This document shows positions 970 to 32,971 of a stretch of 64,000 nucleotides of DNA, in pieces. The first letter of the stretch is position 1. The number at the start of each line of letters is the position of its first letter. The stretch is from the NCBI GenBank assembly GCA_030647775.1, contig JAUSJC010000010.1, forward strand, positions 200,718 through 264,717. The letters run 5' to 3'. Below the pieces are notes generated by a model. The model saw nothing but the letters and a program-made list of their open reading frames with translations, was not told the origin of the DNA and did no database searches. Made by a program: the position numbers and the translations under genes. This stretch comes from Candidatus Curtissbacteria bacterium. Lineage in GTDB: Bacteria > Patescibacteriota > Microgenomatia > Curtissbacterales > GWA2-41-24.

Positions 970-2010
970 ATGAAATCTAATTTATCAAAAATTCTTTTAT
1001 TGATTATTGTTCTATATTCAGTGCACCTATCAACCCTTCTTTTCAAAAACTATCAAGGCGTCGACCTCTCGGAACCAATATTCGGTACTTACAGAAGTGA
1101 CGAAAAGATATTTTTAAAAACATATTATTTGGTTAAATCCGGTCATAGTTATTACGACTCGTTTCAAAGCGCATCGGCAAATGACTACGCCAATCTTAAA
1201 CTCGGATCAGACGTTTTCACCTGGAGACTGCCAACAGCTTTTTACATATGGTCTCTCACAACTACAAACGGTTATCAGATACTTGCAGAGTATTGGGTCT
1301 TGGCCATTCTGTTTTTAGTTAGCGTTTTCTTAATTATCAAAAAACTTGCCACCGTCAACGCTGGCCTATTATCAGTTCTCCTCGTCTTGCCATATTTTGC
1401 GGGCAACCTTTCTTATAAAACGTCTTTCTTATTTATAGAATGGTGGGCCCTGTTTTTCTTTACTTTTGGCCTAACATTTTTCTTTTACAAGAAATTTGTC
1501 CCCGCGTGGATTTTATTTTTTGTCGCGATAGCGATCAGAGAACTTATGATAATTCCCATATTGGCGTTTTTGATTCTATCGCTCCTGTTAAAGAAAAATC
1601 GAATCTTCTTTGCAACTCTTATTTTATTTTCTTTAATAATTTTTGTTCTGCATGCCCACTTTGTACTTTCCCGTTTTCCAGATACGCCTCAAACATCCAC
1701 AATTCTTTCTCGTTTCCACACGCCAGACAAGCAAAGTCTCCTTACAATGATTTCTTTCTCGATGCAAAATTATCCGCTGACGAAGTATAGAATCAATTTA
1801 TTATTAATAGTTCTTGCTTTTATAAGTCTCTTGGCAAACATCAAGGAAAAAGGAATCAGCGAGAAGCTATATTATTATTTAGCACCCTGGAGCATGCTTC
1901 TTACTTTCCCTTTTATCACGACAACCCTTTACAATGATTATTGGGGAATCCTATTTATGCCACTTTTAATCTCAACAGTATCGTCATTATTTTCAAAACA
2001 AAAAACCTGA
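970..2010 (+). CDS. polytopic membrane protein, unknown function
   Basis: 346 aa ORF with multiple hydrophobic helices, tightly packed after the nuclease gene. Confidence 0.5.
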   Translation: MKSNLSKILLLIIVLYSVHLSTLLFKNYQGVDLSEPIFGTYRSDEKIFLKTYYLVKSGHSYYDSFQSASANDYANLKLGSDVFTWRLPTAFYIWSLTTTNGYQILAEYWVLAILFLVSVFLIIKKLATVNAGLLSVLLVLPYFAGNLSYKTSFLFIEWWALFFFTFGLTFFFYKKFVPAWILFFVAIAIRELMIIPILAFLILSLLLKKNRIFFATLILFSLIIFVLHAHFVLSRFPDTPQTSTILSRFHTPDKQSLLTMISFSMQNYPLTKYRINLLLIVLAFISLLANIKEKGISEKLYYYLAPWSMLLTFPFITTTLYNDYWGILFMPLLISTVSSLFSKQKT

Positions 2011-20006: not shown

Positions 20007-20636
20007 TTATGCAAGAGATTTAATCAGTTCAGGTAATTTCTCGAATTGTGAAGTAATTGCATCTACGTTTTTATACTGACTTTGTGAAAAAATAATCACC
20101 TTCATGCCTGCAGCTTTCCCTGCAACAATGTCGTTTTCGACGTCGCCAATATAAACTGCTTCTCTGGGACTTATATTTAGCTTTTGACATGCCAGAAGAA
20201 GCGGTTCTGGATGAGGTTTATGGTTAATAGTGTCTTGATAGGAGATTGTAACCTTAAAATACTTTTGTAATTTTGCAAGGGCAGGAGCTTCGTAAACACT
20301 TTCTTTAATCCGACTTGTAACAATCCCAAGAGAATATATTTTGCTTAAAGTTTCGATGACTTCCCCTGCCTTTTCAGGCATAGTCAACAATTCAAGATGA
20401 TATTTTATTTTACGACTTCGTCCTGTTTCCCATATTTGTTTAATTTCTTCATCTGAGGTGGATTTTGTAAGAGTTTTGATTGCGTCCATCATGCTCAAAT
20501 GAAAAATCGGGGGAAATTCTTCTCTTGTTGGTGGTCGATAACCAACTTTCGTCATTAAATCTTGAAAGAATTTTAAGTTTGCCTCAAATGAATTAAGTAA
20601 AACGCCATCAATATCAAAAACTACCGCTTTTATCAC
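20007..20636 (-). CDS. HAD superfamily hydrolase (beta-phosphoglucomutase-like)
   Basis: DxDGVL motif (VVFDIDGVLLNS) and C-terminal GDxxxD (IGDVENDI). Confidence 0.75.
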   Translation of the reverse strand: MIKAVVFDIDGVLLNSFEANLKFFQDLMTKVGYRPPTREEFPPIFHLSMMDAIKTLTKSTSDEEIKQIWETGRSRKIKYHLELLTMPEKAGEVIETLSKIYSLGIVTSRIKESVYEAPALAKLQKYFKVTISYQDTINHKPHPEPLLLACQKLNISPREAVYIGDVENDIVAGKAAGMKVIIFSQSQYKNVDAITSQFEKLPELIKSLA

Positions 20637-20672
20637 AACGTTATTATAGCAGAGTTTGAAGCTAAATGAGGG

Positions 20673-20743
20673 CTGCGGGACTAGGATTCGAACCTAGATA
20701 AACGGATCCAGAATCCGTTGTCCTACCATTAGACGATCCCGCA
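20673..20743 (-). tRNA. tRNA-Gln (anticodon CUG)
   Basis: Minus-strand cloverleaf: U1:A72 acceptor TGCGGGA/TCCCGCA, D-arm GTCTAATGGTAGGAC, anticodon arm ACGGA-TTCTGGA-TCCGT, T-arm CTAGG-TTCGAAT-CCTAG. No encoded CCA. Confidence 0.75.
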
Positions 20744-20746
20744 AAG

Positions 20747-25877: not shown

Positions 25878-28835
25878 ATGAAACAAAGAAAATTCGATAT
25901 TGATAAAGTTGACACCAGAAGCGCAGTCCGCGCCAAGGTTAGGAAAATTGGCCGCCAAATCCCCAAAGCGCCTAAAGACTTATCTGAACCCGCCCTTTCC
26001 GAAAACGCCGCCTATATCGCCAAAACCCGCTACGCTTTTAGAAACGAAAAGGGCGAACCCATCGAATCTCCAAAAGACATGTTCTGGCGGATTGCCTACT
26101 ACATAGGTGCAGCCGATGAAATCTACCTGCCTCGCGGCAAGGCGGGCCACGGCAAGAAGACCCACGAAAAATCGTCCCGCGAATTTTACGAAATAATGGC
26201 AACCCAAAAGTTTATCCCCAACACGCCGACTTTAGTTAATTCCGGCAAAACCGGTCAGTCGCTTTCGGCCTGCTTCGTTCTTCCGGTTGAAGACAACCTC
26301 GAAAGCATTCTAAAAACCATGCACGATATGGCCATGATCCACAAGATGGGCGGCGGTACCGGTTTTTCTTTTTCCCACCTGCGCCCCAAAGACGATGTTA
26401 TCGGGACTTCCAAGGGTAAGACCACCGGCCCGGTAGCCTTCTTGCAGGCTTATAACGACGTTACTTCCCAAATCCGTCAGGGCGGCGTCAGGCGCGGTGC
26501 CAATATGGGGATTCTCCATTACACCCATCCGGATATCCTGCGCTTTGCCGTCCACAAAGTCGACGAATTTTCCCTAACCAACTTCAATATTTCCGTCACT
26601 GTTACCGAAAATTTCATGAAAAAGGTTAAGGAAGATGAAAAGTATGTAACCCAGGAAGCCGATTTCGACCCGGTTATCGAAGAAATTAAAGAAGCCTACA
26701 CCATCCGCGACTTGGATCTCAAAACCGTCAGGATTGAAGAAGGCGTTATCAAACTTTACGATATTTGCCGCTCCAAAACCCAAGGCGAAGGTTACGACCT
26801 TATAAATCCAAAAACGGGTAAAGTTACAGACCGGTTAAACGCCAAGAAATTCTTCGACCTTATCACCAAACTTGCCTGGCAGTATGGCGACCCGGGCATG
26901 ATCCTGATCGACAGGATTAACAGTTCCCGCGCCAACCCGGTTCCCAATATCGGCCCGATCGAAGCAACCAACCCCTGCGCCGAACAGCCCCTGCACGCCT
27001 ACGACGCCTGCACTTTAGGCTCCATCAACCTTGCCAAGTTTGTCGTAGATGCTGACGAAGGAAGCATCGCAGACCCTGAGCGCAGTCGAAGGGTCGTAGA
27101 CGATAAATCAATCGACTGGCAGGAAATGGGAAATGTGATCGCGACTGCCGTCCATTTTCTCGATAACGTCTTGGATATGAATGAATATCCTGTTCCCGAG
27201 ATCGACAAGATGACATCCGCTATTAGGAGAATCGGCCTTGGGGTTATGGGTTGGGCCGATATGCTTGTCAAACTTGGAATCGGCTACGATACCCGGGAAG
27301 CTTTCGACTTGGCCGAGAAAGTTATGAAATTTGTGCAGCGGGAAGCCGACAGTGCCAGCGTGGATCTTGCCAAAACCCGCGGCGTCTTTCCGGCTTTCAA
27401 AGGTTCCATTTACGACAAACCAGCCACTGGCCCTGAGCGAAGTCGAAGGGGCCAGATTCGTCCCCGAAACGGCGCCAGAACCACCATTGCCCCAACCGGC
27501 ACCATTTCCCTTCTTGCCGATTGTTCTTCCGGCATCGAACCGCATTTTGCCTTAACCTATGCCAAAAACACCATCGAAGGTAAACGCCTTTTTAACACCA
27601 ACTCTTATTTTAAAGAAGCGTTGGACGCCCGCGGGTTAGATTCCGAAGACCTGCTTGCCAAGATTAGCGAAAATAAGGGTTCCATCCAAAACATGGACGA
27701 AATCCCCGAGGGCCTGAAAAAAACCTTTGTAGTCGCCGGTGATATCGCTCCGAAAGATCACGTCCAAGTGGCCGCCGCTTTCCAAAAGTTTACCGACAAC
27801 GGCATTTCCAAAACAATCAACTTCTCCAACGAGGCAACTGTCGAGGATGTGCGCGAAGCTTACTGGTTAAGTTACGAACTTGGCTGCAATATGATCACTA
27901 TTTACCGCGACGGTTCGCGCGTCAAGCAGGTTTTGGAAGTCAAAAAAGGTAAATCCTATTACGACCAGCTTACCGGTAAAAGAACAGAGGCAGAAGCCAG
28001 CCAGGAGCCGGCGCTTCCTATAAAGCGCCGCACACCGCAGGAGGCTTGGGGCATGCGCGTTCGTAAAAAAGCCGATGTCGGTCAAGTCTATACTTCCGTT
28101 TTTCGTGATGTTGATGGTGCCCCGATTGAAGTTTTTGTCACCATCGGCAAAACCGGCGGCTATGTTGCCGGCGCGGCCGAAGTTACCGGGCGTCTGGCTT
28201 CGCGCGCCTTAAAATACGGCGCCACCTTGGAAGAAGTTGCCTCCGATCTTATCGGTATTGCCTGCGGCACTCCCTACGGTTTTGGTACTGAAAGCGTCCT
28301 TTCCGCCTTTGACGCTATCGGCAAATCCTTAATCGAAATTTCCAAGGCCAAACAGCTTCAGCTACCGATGGACAGTCAAGCACAGGCGCAAAACTCGGAA
28401 GTTACCACCCTTTCAATTTCGAATCCTACAAACGGTAACGGCCCGCTTCGCCCGCTCAGCGAGGCGAGCCATACCAACGCCAATGGCAACTCCAACGGAC
28501 ACACCCGCCCGACAACGCCTTCGACGTTAGTCGATGGCGGGCGGGCCAACGGTAATGGTCATACAAACGGTCCGCTTCGCCCGCTCAGCGAGGCGAGCCA
28601 TACCAACGGTAGTAATGGGGTGCAGACAACCCTAAGCAGCCTGGTTGGTACTCCCGTTCCCCAGGTCGAAATCAAGCAGGGGAATAACGGTCTGGTTATT
28701 GCCGCTTTGCACGATGAAGAAAAAGCCCTGGAAACCAAATTCACTTCCTGCCCGGACTGCGGATCACCGCTTGTCTACGCCGAAGGCTGCCGCAAATGCG
28801 TCAACGTCACCTGCGGCTGGAGTAAATGTAGTTAA
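25878..28835 (+). CDS. nrdJ: class II (adenosylcobalamin-dependent) ribonucleotide reductase NrdJ with a C-terminal zinc ribbon
   Basis: NPCAEQ active-site region. C-terminal CPDCGSPLVYAEGCRKCVNVTCGW. Two in-frame family A inserts (ADPERSRRVVDD at 27072-27095; TGPERSRRGQIR at 27429-27453). A low-complexity tandem repeat (GPLRPLSEASHTN) lies at 28441-28609. Confidence 0.85.
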   Translation: MKQRKFDIDKVDTRSAVRAKVRKIGRQIPKAPKDLSEPALSENAAYIAKTRYAFRNEKGEPIESPKDMFWRIAYYIGAADEIYLPRGKAGHGKKTHEKSSREFYEIMATQKFIPNTPTLVNSGKTGQSLSACFVLPVEDNLESILKTMHDMAMIHKMGGGTGFSFSHLRPKDDVIGTSKGKTTGPVAFLQAYNDVTSQIRQGGVRRGANMGILHYTHPDILRFAVHKVDEFSLTNFNISVTVTENFMKKVKEDEKYVTQEADFDPVIEEIKEAYTIRDLDLKTVRIEEGVIKLYDICRSKTQGEGYDLINPKTGKVTDRLNAKKFFDLITKLAWQYGDPGMILIDRINSSRANPVPNIGPIEATNPCAEQPLHAYDACTLGSINLAKFVVDADEGSIADPERSRRVVDDKSIDWQEMGNVIATAVHFLDNVLDMNEYPVPEIDKMTSAIRRIGLGVMGWADMLVKLGIGYDTREAFDLAEKVMKFVQREADSASVDLAKTRGVFPAFKGSIYDKPATGPERSRRGQIRPRNGARTTIAPTGTISLLADCSSGIEPHFALTYAKNTIEGKRLFNTNSYFKEALDARGLDSEDLLAKISENKGSIQNMDEIPEGLKKTFVVAGDIAPKDHVQVAAAFQKFTDNGISKTINFSNEATVEDVREAYWLSYELGCNMITIYRDGSRVKQVLEVKKGKSYYDQLTGKRTEAEASQEPALPIKRRTPQEAWGMRVRKKADVGQVYTSVFRDVDGAPIEVFVTIGKTGGYVAGAAEVTGRLASRALKYGATLEEVASDLIGIACGTPYGFGTESVLSAFDAIGKSLIEISKAKQLQLPMDSQAQAQNSEVTTLSISNPTNGNGPLRPLSEASHTNANGNSNGHTRPTTPSTLVDGGRANGNGHTNGPLRPLSEASHTNGSNGVQTTLSSLVGTPVPQVEIKQGNNGLVIAALHDEEKALETKFTSCPDCGSPLVYAEGCRKCVNVTCGWSKCS
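28441..28609 (+). repeat. coding tandem repeat inside nrdJ (two roughly 40 nt copies of CCGCTTCGCCCGCTCAGCGAGGCGAGCCATACCAACG) in an N/G-rich linker
   Basis: Copies lie at 28441-28480 and 28571-28609. Confidence 0.6.
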
Positions 28836-28837
28836 CC

Positions 28838-29000
28838 CAACCGACCGTCATTCTGGAGCGAAGCGATAGAATCTTGTTTACCATTCCGAAGTCTTGACGA
28901 AGGATGGTCATTGCGAGCAAAGCGAAGCAATCTCTCTTATATTGTTCGAGCTTGTCGAGAACTTTCCTTTTTGTCATTCTGGCCATTCGGCCTTGAGCTC
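28838..29000. repeat. cluster of family B elements (GTCATTCTGGAGCGAAGCG..., GTCATTGCGAGCAAAGCGAAGCAATC) and a family E element (GTTCGAGCTTGTCGAGAAC)
   Basis: Intergenic between nrdJ and the peptidase S51 gene. Confidence 0.55.
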
Positions 29001-29041
29001 ATGGTCGAAAGACTTGACCAGAATCTGCTACAATTTCCCTT

Positions 29042-29704
29042 GTGAAACTACTTTTAACTTCCGGCGGGATCACTAATGGCACCATCAAAAACGCCTTGGC
29101 CGATCTTATCGGCAAACCGTTTTCCGAAACTTCTCTTGCCTTTATTCCAACGGCGGCCGATGTCGAAGACCATGACAAGTCCTGGCTCGTTAATGATCTT
29201 AACAACTGTAAGAATCTAGGCCTAAAACTCTTGGATATTGTCGATATTTCGGCTCTTTCCAAAGAACAATGGGAGCCAAGGCTGCAATCTGCCGACATTT
29301 TATTTTTCGGCGGCGGCAACACTTTCCATTTAATGTATTGGATCAACAAATCCGGCCTTGCCAAAAAACTGCCTGGCCTTTTAAAAACAAAAGTTTACGT
29401 CGGCCTAAGCGCCGGCAGCATGGTTGCCGGTAAAACAATTAGTCTAAGCGACTCCAAAAAACTTTACTACGAAGATATAAAAGGTTATCAGGGCGAAAAA
29501 GTTTTGGGTTTTGTCGATTTTCAAATCCGCCCGCACTTAAATTCTCCCCATTTTCCAGACGTTCAAGAAAAAAAATTGAGAAAATTGGCTAAAAACGCAA
29601 AAGAAAAAGTTTACGCGATCGACGACAACATGGCCATAAAAGTGGTAGACTGCAAAGTGGAAGTAGTCGGTGAAGGCAAATATCTAATCCTTAATTCTAA
29701 ATAA
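29042..29704 (+). CDS. peptidase S51 (peptidase E / cyanophycinase-like)
   Basis: GTG start. LLLTSGGI, GGGNTF and VGLSAGSMVAG motifs. Confidence 0.75.
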   Translation: MKLLLTSGGITNGTIKNALADLIGKPFSETSLAFIPTAADVEDHDKSWLVNDLNNCKNLGLKLLDIVDISALSKEQWEPRLQSADILFFGGGNTFHLMYWINKSGLAKKLPGLLKTKVYVGLSAGSMVAGKTISLSDSKKLYYEDIKGYQGEKVLGFVDFQIRPHLNSPHFPDVQEKKLRKLAKNAKEKVYAIDDNMAIKVVDCKVEVVGEGKYLILNSK

Positions 29705-31182
29705 TGGACATGGTCTTCGATATAAAAAACAATGCACGTAGGAAAAAATCTGTCAAAATCATAGAAGCAGCATTAAAACGTGGCATAGATCTATCATCAT
29801 TGTCAGAGGATGTAGTCATAACAGAGGTTAAAGAAGGTGGGGTTGGTGATGATTATCATATAACTATCACTTACAGTTCGGATCAACTAAACAAAAAGAA
29901 GACTATGCCTGTCCCAAGTACGTCAATGCCACTTGCGGCTGATCAAAATGCAGCTAACCCTGCGTCATACCCCTCCAAAAAAATGGGAACATATTTCTTT
30001 AGATTTATAACACCTACACGTTTAACCTTCAGTGACTGGTTAGTACACCAGAAGTGGGAACAGAATGGAATAAAAGTAAATCTACCTTCGGTTAACGCCG
30101 AGATGATGGTTTTTGATAAAAGAATAAAACATAAAGGGACTTTTATGCACTATGGCCTCGGTTGCGACATAAAAATAATGAGCCAAAACGAAAAAGAAGC
30201 AAAATTACGATCAGAAGTAATAGTCCTAGAATTTTTAACACTCATTTCCTATCTAGAGAAATGTTATTTTGGCGCTCCGTCAATGATCTTAGAATACGAA
30301 TATCCAGAAGAGGGCACAAGCATTAAAAATTACTCAGCAATTATATTTGATAACAACTATATTCCTAAGGAAATAAGTCCGAGGCCGATTAACATTCAAA
30401 GGCTGCAAATTTTTTTAAATAAATTTGAACCACTGGAACCCAATAAAAAAATGTCCATAAGTCAAACATTACATTGGTTTTGGAAAGCTCTTGGTGCTGC
30501 CGACAAAAGAGACAGATTCTTAAGTCTTTGGATTGCACTGGAATTTTTAGAGGAGGAACTTAAAAAAAGATATGGTCTGGCAGCTTCCAAGTCCACTTTG
30601 CCTAAGTGTCCACACTGTAAAAACAACATAGACGCTTGCCCAAAATGTAAAAAGCCAGATCCTTTTTATAAAACAAATACCGGTTTTACAGGCTATAAAG
30701 AAATTGAGAAAGCTATCAAGGGAAAAACACTAAAATTTGACCAAATCCATGCTTACAGAAGTAAATTAATTCATGGTAATAACATCACCGTTAGGGAGGT
30801 AGACGACTCAATAATGTCTACAGTCATATTGATTAATTTGGCAATTTTGACATTAATGGACATGAGTACCGATCCTGATGTTAATGCTAGTGATGCAATA
30901 GAAATGGCAAAAGGATCAATAAGGAAATTAGCATTGCCAATAATGTATAGATTTGATGGGGAGATCAAAGTAAGCGAAATACCAGAAATAGACCATACGG
31001 AAAAGCAACCCTTCGTTTCTGGCGATTTTGATTTACATTTTAAGATTATTAACGGTTTTAAGATTGAAACAGATGGTAAATTAAGACACCAATTCCATGG
31101 AGTTTTTCAAAGTGGTAAGGTTAAAAAGATTTTAATGGTTGATGAGTCTGAAATCGTGGAAAAAGTTTGGGAAATTATTTAA
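29704..31182 (+). CDS. hypothetical 492 aa protein with a HEPN-like R-x4-H motif and an embedded CxxC...CxxC zinc ribbon
   Basis: TAATG overlap with the S51 gene. By eye, GC is lower than in the neighbours. Motifs are LHWFWKALGAADKRDRFLSLWIALEFL, CPHCKNNIDACPKCK and HAYRSKLIHGNN. Confidence 0.6.
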   Translation: MDMVFDIKNNARRKKSVKIIEAALKRGIDLSSLSEDVVITEVKEGGVGDDYHITITYSSDQLNKKKTMPVPSTSMPLAADQNAANPASYPSKKMGTYFFRFITPTRLTFSDWLVHQKWEQNGIKVNLPSVNAEMMVFDKRIKHKGTFMHYGLGCDIKIMSQNEKEAKLRSEVIVLEFLTLISYLEKCYFGAPSMILEYEYPEEGTSIKNYSAIIFDNNYIPKEISPRPINIQRLQIFLNKFEPLEPNKKMSISQTLHWFWKALGAADKRDRFLSLWIALEFLEEELKKRYGLAASKSTLPKCPHCKNNIDACPKCKKPDPFYKTNTGFTGYKEIEKAIKGKTLKFDQIHAYRSKLIHGNNITVREVDDSIMSTVILINLAILTLMDMSTDPDVNASDAIEMAKGSIRKLALPIMYRFDGEIKVSEIPEIDHTEKQPFVSGDFDLHFKIINGFKIETDGKLRHQFHGVFQSGKVKKILMVDESEIVEKVWEII

Positions 31183-31339: not shown

Positions 31340-31540
31340 ATGAATGGAGTAGTTAAAACAAAAATAGATAAAGGATTCGGATTTATTTCTCGTGAAGGAG
31401 AATCAAAGGATCTTTTCTTTCACTCTACGGATTTGAGCGGTGTCACTTTTGAAGAACTTCAAATAGGGGCAGCCGTCACGTTTGATGTTGAGAATGGTGA
31501 AAAAGGCCCAAGTGCAAAAAATGTAAAACTTGCTGCGTAA
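31340..31540 (+). CDS. cspA: cold-shock protein (CspA family)
   Basis: RNP motifs (KGFGFI, LFFHST), 66 aa. Confidence 0.9.
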   Translation: MNGVVKTKIDKGFGFISREGESKDLFFHSTDLSGVTFEELQIGAAVTFDVENGEKGPSAKNVKLAA

Positions 31541-32370: not shown

Positions 32371-32971
32371 ATCTGCCTTTCCAAATCCGTTCTGTTTCCC
32401 CGTCCAATTTGTTGGCGTATCTAGCCAAAACGAATAGCCAATCTGAAAGCCTATTAATATAAGGGAGGATCGCCGCGTTTATTTTTTCCTCTTCCGCGAG
32501 TGTCACAATTGCCCGCTCGGCCCGTCTTGCCGTTGCCCGGGCCAGATGTAATTTCGATCCGCTGGAACTTCCGCCCGGCAAAATAAAATTCTTGAGTTTG
32601 AGCAGCTGCCGATCCATCCGGTCGATTTCTTTCTCTAAGCGTGTAATATGAGCTCTAGTAATTTTGGGAATTTTCACCTTTACATTTTTTGGCGTGGCTA
32701 AATTACTTCCTAAAACCATCAGTTCTGCCTGAACTCTTTCTAATTTTTTTGTCATCGCGAGCGAAGCGAAGCGATCTCTTTTATAATCAGAATCGAGATT
32801 GCTTCGTCGTTCCACTCCTCGTAATGACAGGTCGGATAGAACAACTCCTATCAAGCTGTTCAGCTCATCCACCGTTCCATAAGCCGCTATCCTCGCCGAA
32901 TTTTTCTCCACCCTCTCGCCGCCAAATAGGGAAGTCGTACCGCTGTCTCCGGTCTTTGTGTAAATCTTCAC
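32360..32971 (-). CDS. PduO-type ATP:cob(I)alamin adenosyltransferase
   Basis: MKIYTKTGDSGTTSL N-terminus. Contains an in-frame family B insertion (RFASLAMTKK) at 32751-32815. Confidence 0.75.
   Translation of the reverse strand: MKIYTKTGDSGTTSLFGGERVEKNSARIAAYGTVDELNSLIGVVLSDLSLRGVERRSNLDSDYKRDRFASLAMTKKLERVQAELMVLGSNLATPKNVKVKIPKITRAHITRLEKEIDRMDRQLLKLKNFILPGGSSSGSKLHLARATARRAERAIVTLAEEEKINAAILPYINRLSDWLFVLARYANKLDGETERIWKGRSKT

What the first reader, a model, noticed from the sequence alone, without database searches (positions are those of the whole stretch)
29704..31182. Orphan, compositionally distinct 492 aa gene with a HEPN-like R-x4-H motif and an embedded zinc ribbon, coupled to peptidase S51
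This ORF has no recognisable housekeeping identity and looks more AT-rich than its neighbours (by-eye estimate, mid-30s % GC versus mid-40s). Its ATG overlaps the S51 peptidase stop in a TAATG configuration.

The central all-alpha region (LHWFWKALGAADKRDRFLSLWIALEFLEEEL ...) is interrupted by a CPHC-x7-CPKC zinc ribbon. It is followed by HAYRSKLIHGNN, which fits the R-x4-6-H catalytic signature of HEPN RNases, as found in Abi-type abortive-infection proteins and Swt1/LsoA-like toxins. Both flanking regions (about 250 aa N-terminal and about 90 aa C-terminal) lack known motifs.

A single acquired HEPN-type effector fused to unknown sensor domains is the architecture expected of a novel single-gene antiphage or abortive-infection system, or of a toxin.
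Basis: partly seen in the sequence, partly recalled or inferred. Interest (0 to 1): 0.65.

Follow-up and report, generated by a model that had tools for sequence, protein, structure and literature searches.

The report
Compact ApeA-like HEPN RNase gene
This AT-rich gene in a Candidatus Curtissbacteria genome encodes a shortened, zinc-ribbon-bearing relative of the bacterial antiviral RNase ApeA, so it is most likely a stand-alone RNA-cutting defence or toxin protein; that makes it a new variant of a known kind, not a new kind of system.

Summary
ORF 29704-31182 (492 aa) is real, overlaps the S51 peptidase stop (TAATG), and has the lowest GC of 47 ORFs in the window (0.352 vs 0.432±0.036). It carries a Cys4 zinc ribbon (x6 spacer, not x7) and an R-x4-H motif.

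The HEPN reading is supported and can be made more specific.
- The protein belongs to a rare, metagenome-only family of about 70 clusters, each about 400 aa.
- In 62 aligned members R352 is invariant. H357, E280, W276, F272 and Cys312/315 are at least 90% conserved.
- The family profile matches solved ApeA antiviral proteins (E=1.9e-7). hhalign against an ApeA profile gives 97% probability (E=5.9e-11).
- A pLDDT-92 AlphaFold model places R-x4-H at the end of helix 3, the acidic residue in helix 2, and the zinc ribbon in the helix2-helix3 insert.

It is not a true ApeA. It lacks ApeA's N-terminal ligand-pocket domain, has an extra C-terminal β domain, and fails the ApeA and HEPN_Apea HMMs. Distant members fall into Pfam MauJ.

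Genomic contexts vary and no partner gene is conserved, so the link to S51 is local. The most likely function is an infection- or stress-activated RNase. This is inferred, not shown.

The parts
29704..31182 (+). Whole ORF, 492 aa plus stop. Identical to NCBI MDO8487368.1, 'HEPN domain-containing protein', Candidatus Curtissbacteria.
29704..29982 (+). N-terminal extension (aa 1-93), unique to this copy. All other family members start at the equivalent of M94. GC is 0.394, against 0.343 for the core. It shares a short motif (DLSSLSEDVVITE) with an accessory module that is fused C-terminally in P0004 and is a separate 60-aa ORF in L001.
   Evidence: low-confidence alpha/beta
29983..30390 (+). Conserved N-terminal beta/alpha domain (aa 94-229). 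Conserved residues are H149-x-G151...D155, A166 and R227. Its second half aligns with the ApeA Mid domain.
30394..30570 (+). First half of the HEPN domain (aa 231-289). It contains the helices with L-H-W-F-W-K-A-L-G and D270-x-F272-x3-W276-I-A-L-E280. E280 is the conserved acidic residue of helix 2 and aligns with ApeA W377/L380/E381.
30586..30678 (+). Cys4 zinc ribbon (aa 295-325; C302, C305, C312, C315), inserted between HEPN helix 2 and helix 3.
30736..30774 (+). HEPN helix 3 (aa 345-357), with catalytic-type R352 (codon 30757-30759) and H357 (codon 30772-30774). H357 is the first residue after the predicted helix.
30790..30909 (+). HEPN helix 4 and a following helix (aa 363-402).
30940..31179 (+). 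C-terminal beta-strand domain (aa 413-492). The nearly invariant Q435-P436 precedes the second of four long strands. It has no counterpart in ApeA and is a candidate sensor or oligomerisation domain.
29042..29704 (+). Upstream peptidase S51 gene. Its stop overlaps the start of the HEPN gene, and a promoter-like site lies at 29005-29034. It is not a conserved partner.
31340..31540 (+). Downstream cold-shock protein gene (CSD). It is absent from the same junction in the syntenic relative L003 and is not a conserved partner.

Best explanation
The gene encodes a stand-alone HEPN ribonuclease that is a compact, distant relative of the antiviral protein ApeA.

Architecture:
- a lineage-specific 93-aa N-terminal extension;
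- a beta/alpha domain homologous to ApeA's Mid domain;
- a HEPN four-helix domain with a Cys4 zinc ribbon filling the variable helix2-helix3 insert;
- a C-terminal beta domain that ApeA lacks.

Proposed mechanism, inferred by analogy with ApeA and other HEPN enzymes:
1. Two copies dimerise through their HEPN domains.
2. The two R352-x4-H357 motifs, supported by E280, form one composite, metal-independent RNase site.
3. The enzyme stays inactive until a cue of phage infection or cell damage is sensed by the non-HEPN parts (zinc ribbon, C-terminal beta domain, N-terminal extension).
4. It then cuts cellular or viral RNA, with tRNA anticodon loops the most likely target, and arrests translation.

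Shown here: homology to ApeA, conservation of the catalytic constellation, the predicted domain layout, AT-rich composition and variable genomic context. Inferred: dimerisation, RNase activity, the trigger, and the defence role.
For: Family and conservation:
- The family has 70 clusters, mostly about 400 aa.
- R352 is conserved in 62/62 members, H357 in 60/62, E280 in 59/62 (the rest D), W276 in 58, F272 in 57, D270 in 52, Cys312/315 in 57 and Cys302/305 in 48.

Homology to ApeA:
- The family profile against PDB sequences returns only ApeA defence proteins as significant hits: Ec4ApeA 1.9e-7, Ec3ApeA 4.2e-6, Ec2ApeA 4.5e-4.
- hhalign gives 94.8% probability (E=5e-8) against one ApeA and 97.1% (E=5.9e-11) against a 6-sequence ApeA profile. 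The match covers the Mid domain and the W-x2-L-E helix.
- The R-x4-H helix aligns with ApeA's RLYRxRNxIVH at E=4.6e-4.
- The ApeA invariants W377/L380/E381/R508/H513 mirror W276/L279/E280/R352/H357.

Structure:
- The AlphaFold2 model has pLDDT 92.1 and pTM 0.85. R sits at the end of a helix, H is the first loop residue, the acidic residue lies two helices upstream, and the zinc ribbon lies between them.
- This is the layout described for HEPN domains in PMC3710099.

Known ApeA biology:
- ApeA cleaves tRNA anticodon loops or phage RNA, and its R-to-A mutants lose defence (bioRxiv 10.64898/2026.01.26.701840 and 10.64898/2026.03.20.713152).

Context and composition:
- Neighbours in other loci include a HigB/HigA-like pair, Mrr_cat, a serine recombinase with Macro and a large helicase, an AAA_15/21 ATPase, and DUF4258. 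No partner is conserved.
- The gene is AT-richer than its surroundings in the window and in 8 of 8 other loci.
- Pattern scans for the close subfamily and for one distant subgroup found no relative in GTDB species representatives, and scans for the close subfamily found none in IMG/VR or JGI metagenomes.
Against: - No experiment bears on this family.
- The window protein and its family do not reach the PADLOC ApeA or Pfam HEPN_Apea models.
- The ApeA N-terminal domain, which forms the activating ligand pocket, is absent. The activation mechanism therefore cannot simply be transferred.
- In the window the gene lies among housekeeping genes (RNR, S51 peptidase, CspA, PduO-type adenosyltransferase) rather than in a defence island.
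- It is syntenic in one related genome, with divergence like its neighbours: 64% identity versus 42% and 67%.
- The residue after R is N, D or H in only about a third of members. It is S in the window and G in 16 members.
- The R-x4-H segment alignment on its own is weak (33% probability).
Confidence: 0.6

Rival explanations
1. It is a toxin or addiction-type selfish RNase. The HEPN enzyme is carried by mobile elements and maintained by its own toxicity or by an unrecognised antitoxin, and has no dedicated anti-phage role.
For: HEPN domains are common toxins of toxin-antitoxin systems (HepT/MntA; PMC3710099). Homologues sit beside other toxin-antitoxin genes and recombinases. The composition is AT-rich everywhere.
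Against: No conserved adjacent small gene could serve as an antitoxin across loci. The closest characterised relatives (ApeA) are single-gene defence proteins regulated allosterically rather than by an antitoxin.
Confidence: 0.15
2. It is a housekeeping or stress-response RNA-processing RNase of this Curtissbacteria lineage. It is co-expressed with the S51 peptidase and functionally linked to the neighbouring RNA chaperone CspA.
For: The start overlaps the S51 stop, and the only promoter-like site lies upstream of S51. The locus is shared with a related genome, with neighbour-like divergence. CspA lies directly downstream.
Against: S51 and CspA are not neighbours in any other locus, and CspA is missing even in the syntenic relative. 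The family is rare and patchy rather than lineage-wide. The gene is compositionally atypical.
Confidence: 0.12
3. It has a HEPN-like fold but is catalytically inert, acting as a nucleotide- or nucleic-acid-binding regulator. The zinc ribbon is the functional nucleic-acid-binding element.
For: Some HEPN families have lost catalysis and act as binding domains (PMC3710099). The polar residue after R is not well conserved. The zinc ribbon is strongly conserved.
Against: R, H and the helix-2 acidic residue are essentially invariant across sequences that share only 16-18% mean column identity. That pattern is the signature of an active site.
Confidence: 0.08
4. It is not a HEPN domain at all. The R-x4-H is a chance motif in an unrelated helical protein.
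For: R-x4-H occurs in 35% of shuffled versions of this protein. Foldseek found no HEPN structure. No HEPN HMM is hit directly.
Against: There are significant and specific profile matches to three solved ApeA proteins and to an ApeA profile. The motif is invariant across the family. The predicted helix topology matches HEPN. NCBI independently labels the protein HEPN.
Confidence: 0.05

Closest known systems
ApeA single-gene anti-phage system (Gao et al. 2020; structures 9HXB, 9HXJ, 9HXM; bioRxiv 10.64898/2026.01.26.701840)
   Same: Both are single proteins with one HEPN domain. They share a homologous Mid-type beta/alpha domain followed by the HEPN helix carrying the invariant W-x2-L-E, and later the R-x4-H helix. 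The HEPN domain is split by an insertion in both. Both occur as stand-alone genes in variable or mobile contexts. Zn2+ is bound in some ApeAs.
   Different: The protein is about 400 aa (core) rather than about 600. It lacks the ApeA N-terminal domain (residues 1-198), which together with HEPN forms the activating ligand pocket. A ~60-aa segment containing a Cys4 zinc ribbon replaces ApeA's ~110-125-aa segment between the two conserved helices. There is an extra C-terminal beta domain. It is not detected by the PADLOC ApeA or Pfam HEPN_Apea models. It is found in a Patescibacteria/CPR genome, a group not listed among known ApeA hosts in bioRxiv 10.64898/2026.03.20.713152.
Pfam PF17419 MauJ (methylamine utilization protein MauJ; function unknown)
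   Same: The 116-position MauJ profile covers exactly the HEPN module of this family, including the zinc ribbon and R-x4-H. 15 of 62 members match at E<0.01, and two exceed the gathering cut-off at 32.4 and 31.1 bits.
   Different: The window protein and its closer relatives give no MauJ hit at all. MauJ has no assigned function or literature in the searchable library. No mau genes are nearby.
Minimal HEPN toxins (HepT of HepT/MntA) and other HEPN defence RNases (PrrC, Csm6, Cas13, DARNA)
   Same: They share the R-x4-6-H motif at the end of helix 3, an acidic residue in helix 2, and the expected dimeric composite active site with metal-independent RNA cleavage (PMC3710099).
   Different: There is no MNT-type antitoxin, ABC ATPase, CARF domain or CRISPR association here. 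The flanking domains are different, and the HEPN domain is interrupted by a zinc ribbon.

Membership tests
HEPN superfamily (Anantharaman et al. 2013, PMC3710099) | Conserved R-x4-6-H motif | tested here: met
   R352 is present in 62/62 members and H357 in 60/62, always with a 4-residue spacer.
HEPN superfamily (Anantharaman et al. 2013, PMC3710099) | [quoted passage not shown] | tested here: met
   In the AlphaFold2 model (pLDDT 92) the helix spans core residues 252-263, with R259 inside it and H264 as the first loop residue. The zinc ribbon (core 200-232) lies between the helix 175-196 and this helix.
HEPN superfamily (Anantharaman et al. 2013, PMC3710099) | Conserved acidic residue in helix 2 | tested here: met
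   E280 is E in 59/62 members and D in 3/62, and lies in helix core 175-196. The K/R of the E-x3-[KR] form is not conserved.
HEPN superfamily (Anantharaman et al. 2013, PMC3710099) | Polar residue (N/D/H) immediately after the R | tested here: inconclusive
   At position 353 the counts are N 17, G 16, S 14, A 4, H 3. The window protein has S.
HEPN superfamily (Anantharaman et al. 2013, PMC3710099) | Four-helix up-down bundle superposable on solved HEPN structures | tested here: inconclusive
HEPN superfamily (Anantharaman et al. 2013, PMC3710099) | Homodimerisation forming a composite active site; RNase activity | not testable with these tools
   No multimer prediction or biochemistry was available.
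ApeA defence system | Significant sequence or profile homology to bona fide ApeA proteins | tested here: met
   hmmsearch against PDB gave Ec4ApeA 1.9e-7, Ec3ApeA 4.2e-6 and Ec2ApeA 4.5e-4. hhalign gave 97.1% probability, E=5.9e-11. Four of the six proteins used for the ApeA profile hit PADLOC ApeA.
ApeA defence system | Recognition by the family's own models (PADLOC PDLC02157 ApeA; Pfam PF18739 HEPN_Apea) | tested here: not met
   Neither the window protein nor any of the 62 members hit these models.
ApeA defence system | [quoted passage not shown] | tested here: not met
   The family core is about 400 aa. The alignment to ApeA starts at ApeA residue ~257-260, so there is no counterpart of residues 1-198. 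An extra C-terminal beta domain is present. The architecture is as described.
ApeA defence system | Protection against phage that depends on the HEPN arginine; tRNA anticodon or phage RNA cleavage | not testable with these tools
   This requires experiments. It is known for ApeA.
Pfam PF17419 MauJ | Score at or above the gathering cut-off (28 bits) | tested here: not met
   The window protein gives no hit at E<=10. Distant members P0064 (32.4 bits) and P0065 (31.1 bits) do pass, and 15 of 62 match at E<0.01.
Cys4 zinc ribbon | Two CxxC knuckles conserved and flanked by beta strands | tested here: met
   C302/C305 are present in 48/62 members and C312/C315 in 57/62. Short strands flank the knuckles in the model. 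There are weak hits to HVO_2753/DUF1610, Nop10 and DZR zinc-ribbon models. The pattern occurred in 0 of 5000 shuffles.

The most novel reading that the evidence does not exclude
This family may be a previously undescribed compact lineage of ApeA-like immune RNases. It has discarded ApeA's N-terminal ligand-pocket domain and instead uses a zinc ribbon inserted in the HEPN domain, a new C-terminal beta domain, and shuffled accessory modules such as the window's N-terminal extension. It would therefore sense a different trigger and be activated differently.

The family would also link the unexplained Pfam family MauJ to HEPN RNases. It would be the first ApeA-type effector described in ultra-small Patescibacteria, where it might act in phage defence or in conflict with the host cell these episymbionts live on.
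Probability: 0.35. Interest if true: 0.6.

Novelty: new variant of a known kind. Interest (0 to 1): 0.42.

Why it matters
ApeA has only just been explained mechanistically. It is a HEPN RNase switched on by small molecules or RNA bound in a pocket built from its N-terminal domain.

A natural relative that keeps the Mid and HEPN core but lacks that pocket domain, and carries a zinc ribbon and a new beta domain instead, offers a comparison case. It could show how HEPN immune RNases are gated and how sensor modules are swapped.

The finding also gives a testable functional hypothesis for Pfam MauJ-like proteins. It adds a candidate immune effector to CPR/Patescibacteria, whose defence repertoires are poorly known.

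The practical impact is modest. The HEPN assignment is already in NCBI's annotation, and the biology expected is that of a known kind of system.

Tried and rejected
Searches that led nowhere:
- Direct HMM scans of the window protein against Pfam, NCBIfam, PADLOC and PHROGs gave only weak zinc-finger echoes. phmmer against PDB sequences likewise returned only a weak zinc-finger (DUF1610) echo, 6ydh.
- The first AlphaFold run, with a 4-sequence alignment, was poor (pLDDT 52.7) and was not used for inference.
- Pattern-based locus scans found no relatives. These covered GTDB species genomes (two different probes), IMG/VR and JGI metagenomes.
- Seeding the large protein database with a 67-aa Ec4ApeA fragment returned only an 87-aa fragment. 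ApeA sequences were obtained instead by tblastn on plasmids.
- Literature searches for MauJ returned nothing relevant.

Ideas considered and rejected:
- DARNA (PD-T7-3) is not a closer relative. Its HEPN domain is N-terminal and Csm6-like, with a different architecture.
- Functional coupling to S51 peptidase or CspA was rejected because neither is a neighbour in other loci.
- Recent insertion as a discrete mobile element was rejected. No flanking direct or inverted repeats, tRNA or integrase were found, and the locus is shared with a relative.
- Homology of the window's N-terminal extension to the shuffled accessory module is only suggestive (E 0.005-0.03). The homology between the L001 ORF and the P0004 tail, by contrast, is solid (E=1e-13).
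Full report
**1. The observation**

The ORF at 29704..31182 (+) is real and encodes 492 aa. Its ATG shares one base with the TAA stop of the upstream peptidase S51 gene, giving the sequence ...AAATAATGGAC.... The upstream gene matches Pfam Peptidase_S51 at 2.4e-33 and the downstream 66-aa gene matches CSD at 2.9e-20.

- **Composition.** The gene has the lowest GC of 47 non-overlapping ORFs of at least 150 aa in the window. Its GC is 0.352 against a mean of 0.432 (sd 0.036). Its GC3 is 0.316 against 0.429 (sd 0.054), the third lowest. The sliding profile shows a trough of 0.34-0.38 across the gene, against 0.44-0.55 upstream. The by-eye composition claim is therefore correct, with z of about -2.2.
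- **Zinc ribbon.** The sequence is CPHC-x6-CPKC, not x7. Such a pattern never appeared in 5000 shuffles.
- **R-x4-H.** R352-SKLI-H357 is present, but a bare R-x4-H turns up in 35% of shuffles. The motif means nothing unless it is conserved.

**2. Relatives**

An identical protein is in NCBI as MDO8487368.1, 'HEPN domain-containing protein [Candidatus Curtissbacteria bacterium]', on a 527-kb contig. The word-indexed search found only three other relatives. The exhaustive HMMER search of 1.84 billion representatives found 70 clusters (E<=1e-3), mostly 370-410 aa, and all begin at the equivalent of window residue M94.

In a 62-sequence alignment with only 16-18% mean column identity, conservation is as follows:

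| Residue | Conserved in (of 62) |
|---|---|
| R352 | 62 |
| H357 | 60 |
| P436 | 60 |
| E280 | 59 (remaining 3 are D) |
| W276 | 58 |
| F272 | 57 |
| C312, C315 | 57 |
| D270 | 52 |
| C302, C305 | 48 |

Every subgroup keeps the same motif order: RAxxWxRKGL...DxFxxxWIxLE, then CxxC...CPxC, then R-x4-H-G.

**3. What it is**

No HMM library recognises the window protein itself. The family profile, however, searched against all PDB sequences, returns the recently solved ApeA antiviral proteins as its only significant hits. These are Ec4ApeA (9HXM, 1.9e-7), Ec3ApeA (9HXJ, 4.2e-6) and Ec2ApeA (9HXB, 4.5e-4). A second, weaker, co-linear stretch lies on the R-x4-H helix.

To test this further I retrieved a full-length Ec4ApeA-like gene from plasmid pKP91, where it sits beside the anti-phage gene ppl, and five divergent homologues from other plasmids. 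Four of the six hit the PADLOC ApeA model.

- hhalign of my family against the single ApeA gave 94.8% probability (E=5e-8).
- hhalign against the six-sequence ApeA profile gave 97.1% (E=5.9e-11).
- The aligned block runs from the second half of ApeA's Mid domain through the helix bearing the invariant W-x2-L-E. It stops where the two families carry different insertions.
- Aligning the regions after the insertion separately places the family's F..hR..R..LhHG on ApeA's RLYRxRNxIVHxAG. This is E=4.6e-4 for that single comparison and only 33% probability on its own.
- The ApeA invariants W377, L380, E381, R508 and H513 correspond one-to-one to W276, L279, E280, R352 and H357.

**4. Structure**

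With the 62-sequence alignment, AlphaFold2 gave a confident model of the core (residues 94-492; pLDDT 92.1, pTM 0.85). In window numbering, the order is:

1. a beta/alpha domain (94-229);
2. helices 231-241, 246-264 and 268-289;
3. a strand-rich zinc-ribbon excursion (295-325);
4. a short helix;
5. helix 345-356, with R352 inside it and H357 as the first residue after it;
6. helices 363-384 and 391-402;
7. four long beta strands (414-478).

This matches the description of HEPN domains in Anantharaman et al. [quoted passage not shown]

**5. Relation to Pfam MauJ**

Fifteen of the 62 members match Pfam PF17419 (MauJ, function unknown) at E<0.01. Two of them exceed the gathering cut-off: P0064 at 32.4 bits and P0065 at 31.1 bits, against 28. 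The 116-position profile spans exactly the HEPN module, including the zinc ribbon and R-x4-H.

The window protein does not match MauJ. The broader family thus grades into MauJ, which would itself be an ApeA-like HEPN module. I found no literature on this.

**6. Context and evolution**

- **Synteny.** The closest homologue (P0002, 64% identity, cut by the contig end) lies at the same locus in a related genome. It is followed by the same 211/218-aa protein and the same PduO-type adenosyltransferase, which are 42% and 67% identical to the window's copies. The gene has therefore been at this locus since those genomes diverged. cspA is absent from that junction in the relative.
- **Other loci.** All other loci differ. 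Neighbours include a HigB/HigA-like pair (L002), Mrr_cat (L004), a serine recombinase with Macro and a 1335-aa helicase/MTES_1575 protein (L005), an AAA_15/AAA_21 ATPase (a JGI contig) and DUF4258 (L010). No partner gene is conserved, so the overlap with S51 is a local feature of a compact genome.
- **Composition elsewhere.** In all eight other loci with DNA, the homologue is 2-9 GC points below the rest of its contig. This is typical of accessory or conflict genes.
- **Rarity.** Pattern scans found no relatives in GTDB species representatives, IMG/VR or JGI metagenomes.
- **No mobile-element signature.** No tRNA, integrase or flanking repeats mark the window gene as a discrete mobile element.

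**7. The N-terminal extension**

Residues 1-93 exist only in the window copy and have a higher GC (0.394) than the core (0.343). They share a 13-residue motif with an accessory module (E=0.005-0.03). That module is clearly homologous between the C-terminal tail of P0004, where a SEC-C motif follows it, and a separate 60-aa ORF just downstream of P0003 in L001 (E=1e-13). This suggests, but does not prove, that small accessory modules are shuffled around the core.

**8. Mechanism**

ApeA proteins dimerise through HEPN to form a composite active site and assemble into rings. [quoted passage not shown] They then cut tRNA anticodon loops or phage genomic RNA, and mutating the HEPN arginine abolishes defence (bioRxiv 10.64898/2026.01.26.701840; bioRxiv 10.64898/2026.03.20.713152).

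By homology, I infer that the window protein is a dimeric, metal-independent RNase using R352, H357 and E280, held inactive until triggered. Because it lacks the ApeA N-terminal domain, the trigger and the gating must differ. The conserved zinc ribbon, the C-terminal beta domain with its invariant Q-P, and the accessory extension are the candidates. None of this is shown experimentally.

**9. Classification and score**

The protein meets the sequence and topology criteria of the HEPN superfamily and is demonstrably homologous to ApeA. It fails two defining features of ApeA proper: the three-domain ~600-aa architecture with the pocket-forming N-terminal domain, and recognition by the ApeA and HEPN_Apea models. 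I therefore file it as an ApeA-like HEPN protein, a new variant of a known kind, and not as an ApeA.

Interest is moderate:
- the HEPN label already exists in NCBI;
- the expected biology is familiar;
- the distinct architecture, the link to MauJ and the CPR host are worth a specialist's follow-up.

Noticed in passing
window 29704-29982; L001:2720-2902; L002 C-terminal part of 1193-2683: A ~55-aa accessory module (consensus roughly K-x-ELQEIhD-x-G-h-x-DISSLP-D/E-D-x-EIT-D ... h-T-Y/F-T-SK-x-F) occurs in two clear forms. It is a C-terminal fusion followed by a SEC-C motif in P0004, and a separate ORF downstream of P0003 (E=1e-13 between these two). It may also be the window protein's N-terminal extension, but there only a 13-residue motif matches (E 0.005-0.03).
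   Followed up: partly
window 28437-28479 and 28566-28608; 27074-27093 and 27431-27450 (inside the ribonucleotide reductase gene 25878-28835): In-frame DNA repeats lie inside the RNR coding sequence. One is a 43-nt direct repeat (98% identical, 129 nt apart) encoding NGPLRPLSEASHTN twice. The other is a 20-nt element, CCCTGAGCG(C/A)AGTCGAAGGG, present twice and encoding PERSRR. These look like small repeat elements tolerated within a gene.
   Followed up: partly
window 28856-28880, 28915-28939, 32759-32783: Copies of a GAGCGAAGCGAAGCAATCTC-type short repeat occur twice in the RNR-S51 intergenic region and once inside the PduO-type adenosyltransferase gene. The orthologue in L003 carries a similar peptide insertion (…HASLAMT…).
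   Followed up: no
window 31340-31540 versus L003 1066-1102: The cold-shock gene cspA lies between the HEPN gene and the 218-aa gene in the window. It is absent from the same junction in the syntenic relative, where the gap is only 35 nt. This is an insertion or deletion difference inside the AT-rich stretch.
   Followed up: partly
family members P0064, P0065 and others (not in the window): The Pfam family MauJ (PF17419, 'methylamine utilization protein', function unknown) appears to be an ApeA-like HEPN module with an inserted zinc ribbon and a conserved R-x4-H.
   Followed up: partly
L007 (Klebsiella variicola plasmid pKP91, NC_011281.1 64084-65913): The Ec4ApeA-type gene is annotated only as 'hypothetical protein'. 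It sits next to the anti-phage gene ppl and a ccdA antitoxin gene. It gives no Pfam HEPN_Apea hit (E<=1), and the tblastn fragment search matched 109 plasmid records, nearly all enterobacterial.
   Followed up: partly
window 30607-30622 and 30637-30652: The two zinc-ribbon knuckles (CPHCK and CPKCK) are also similar at the DNA level (81% over 16 nt). This is compatible with an old internal duplication, or simply with codon constraints.
   Followed up: no
window 970-2010 and 20007-20555: Two other ORFs are compositional outliers. The first has GC 0.358. The second has GC 0.366 and the lowest GC3 in the window (0.273), and lies next to tRNA-Gln (20670-20744). They were not examined.
   Followed up: no
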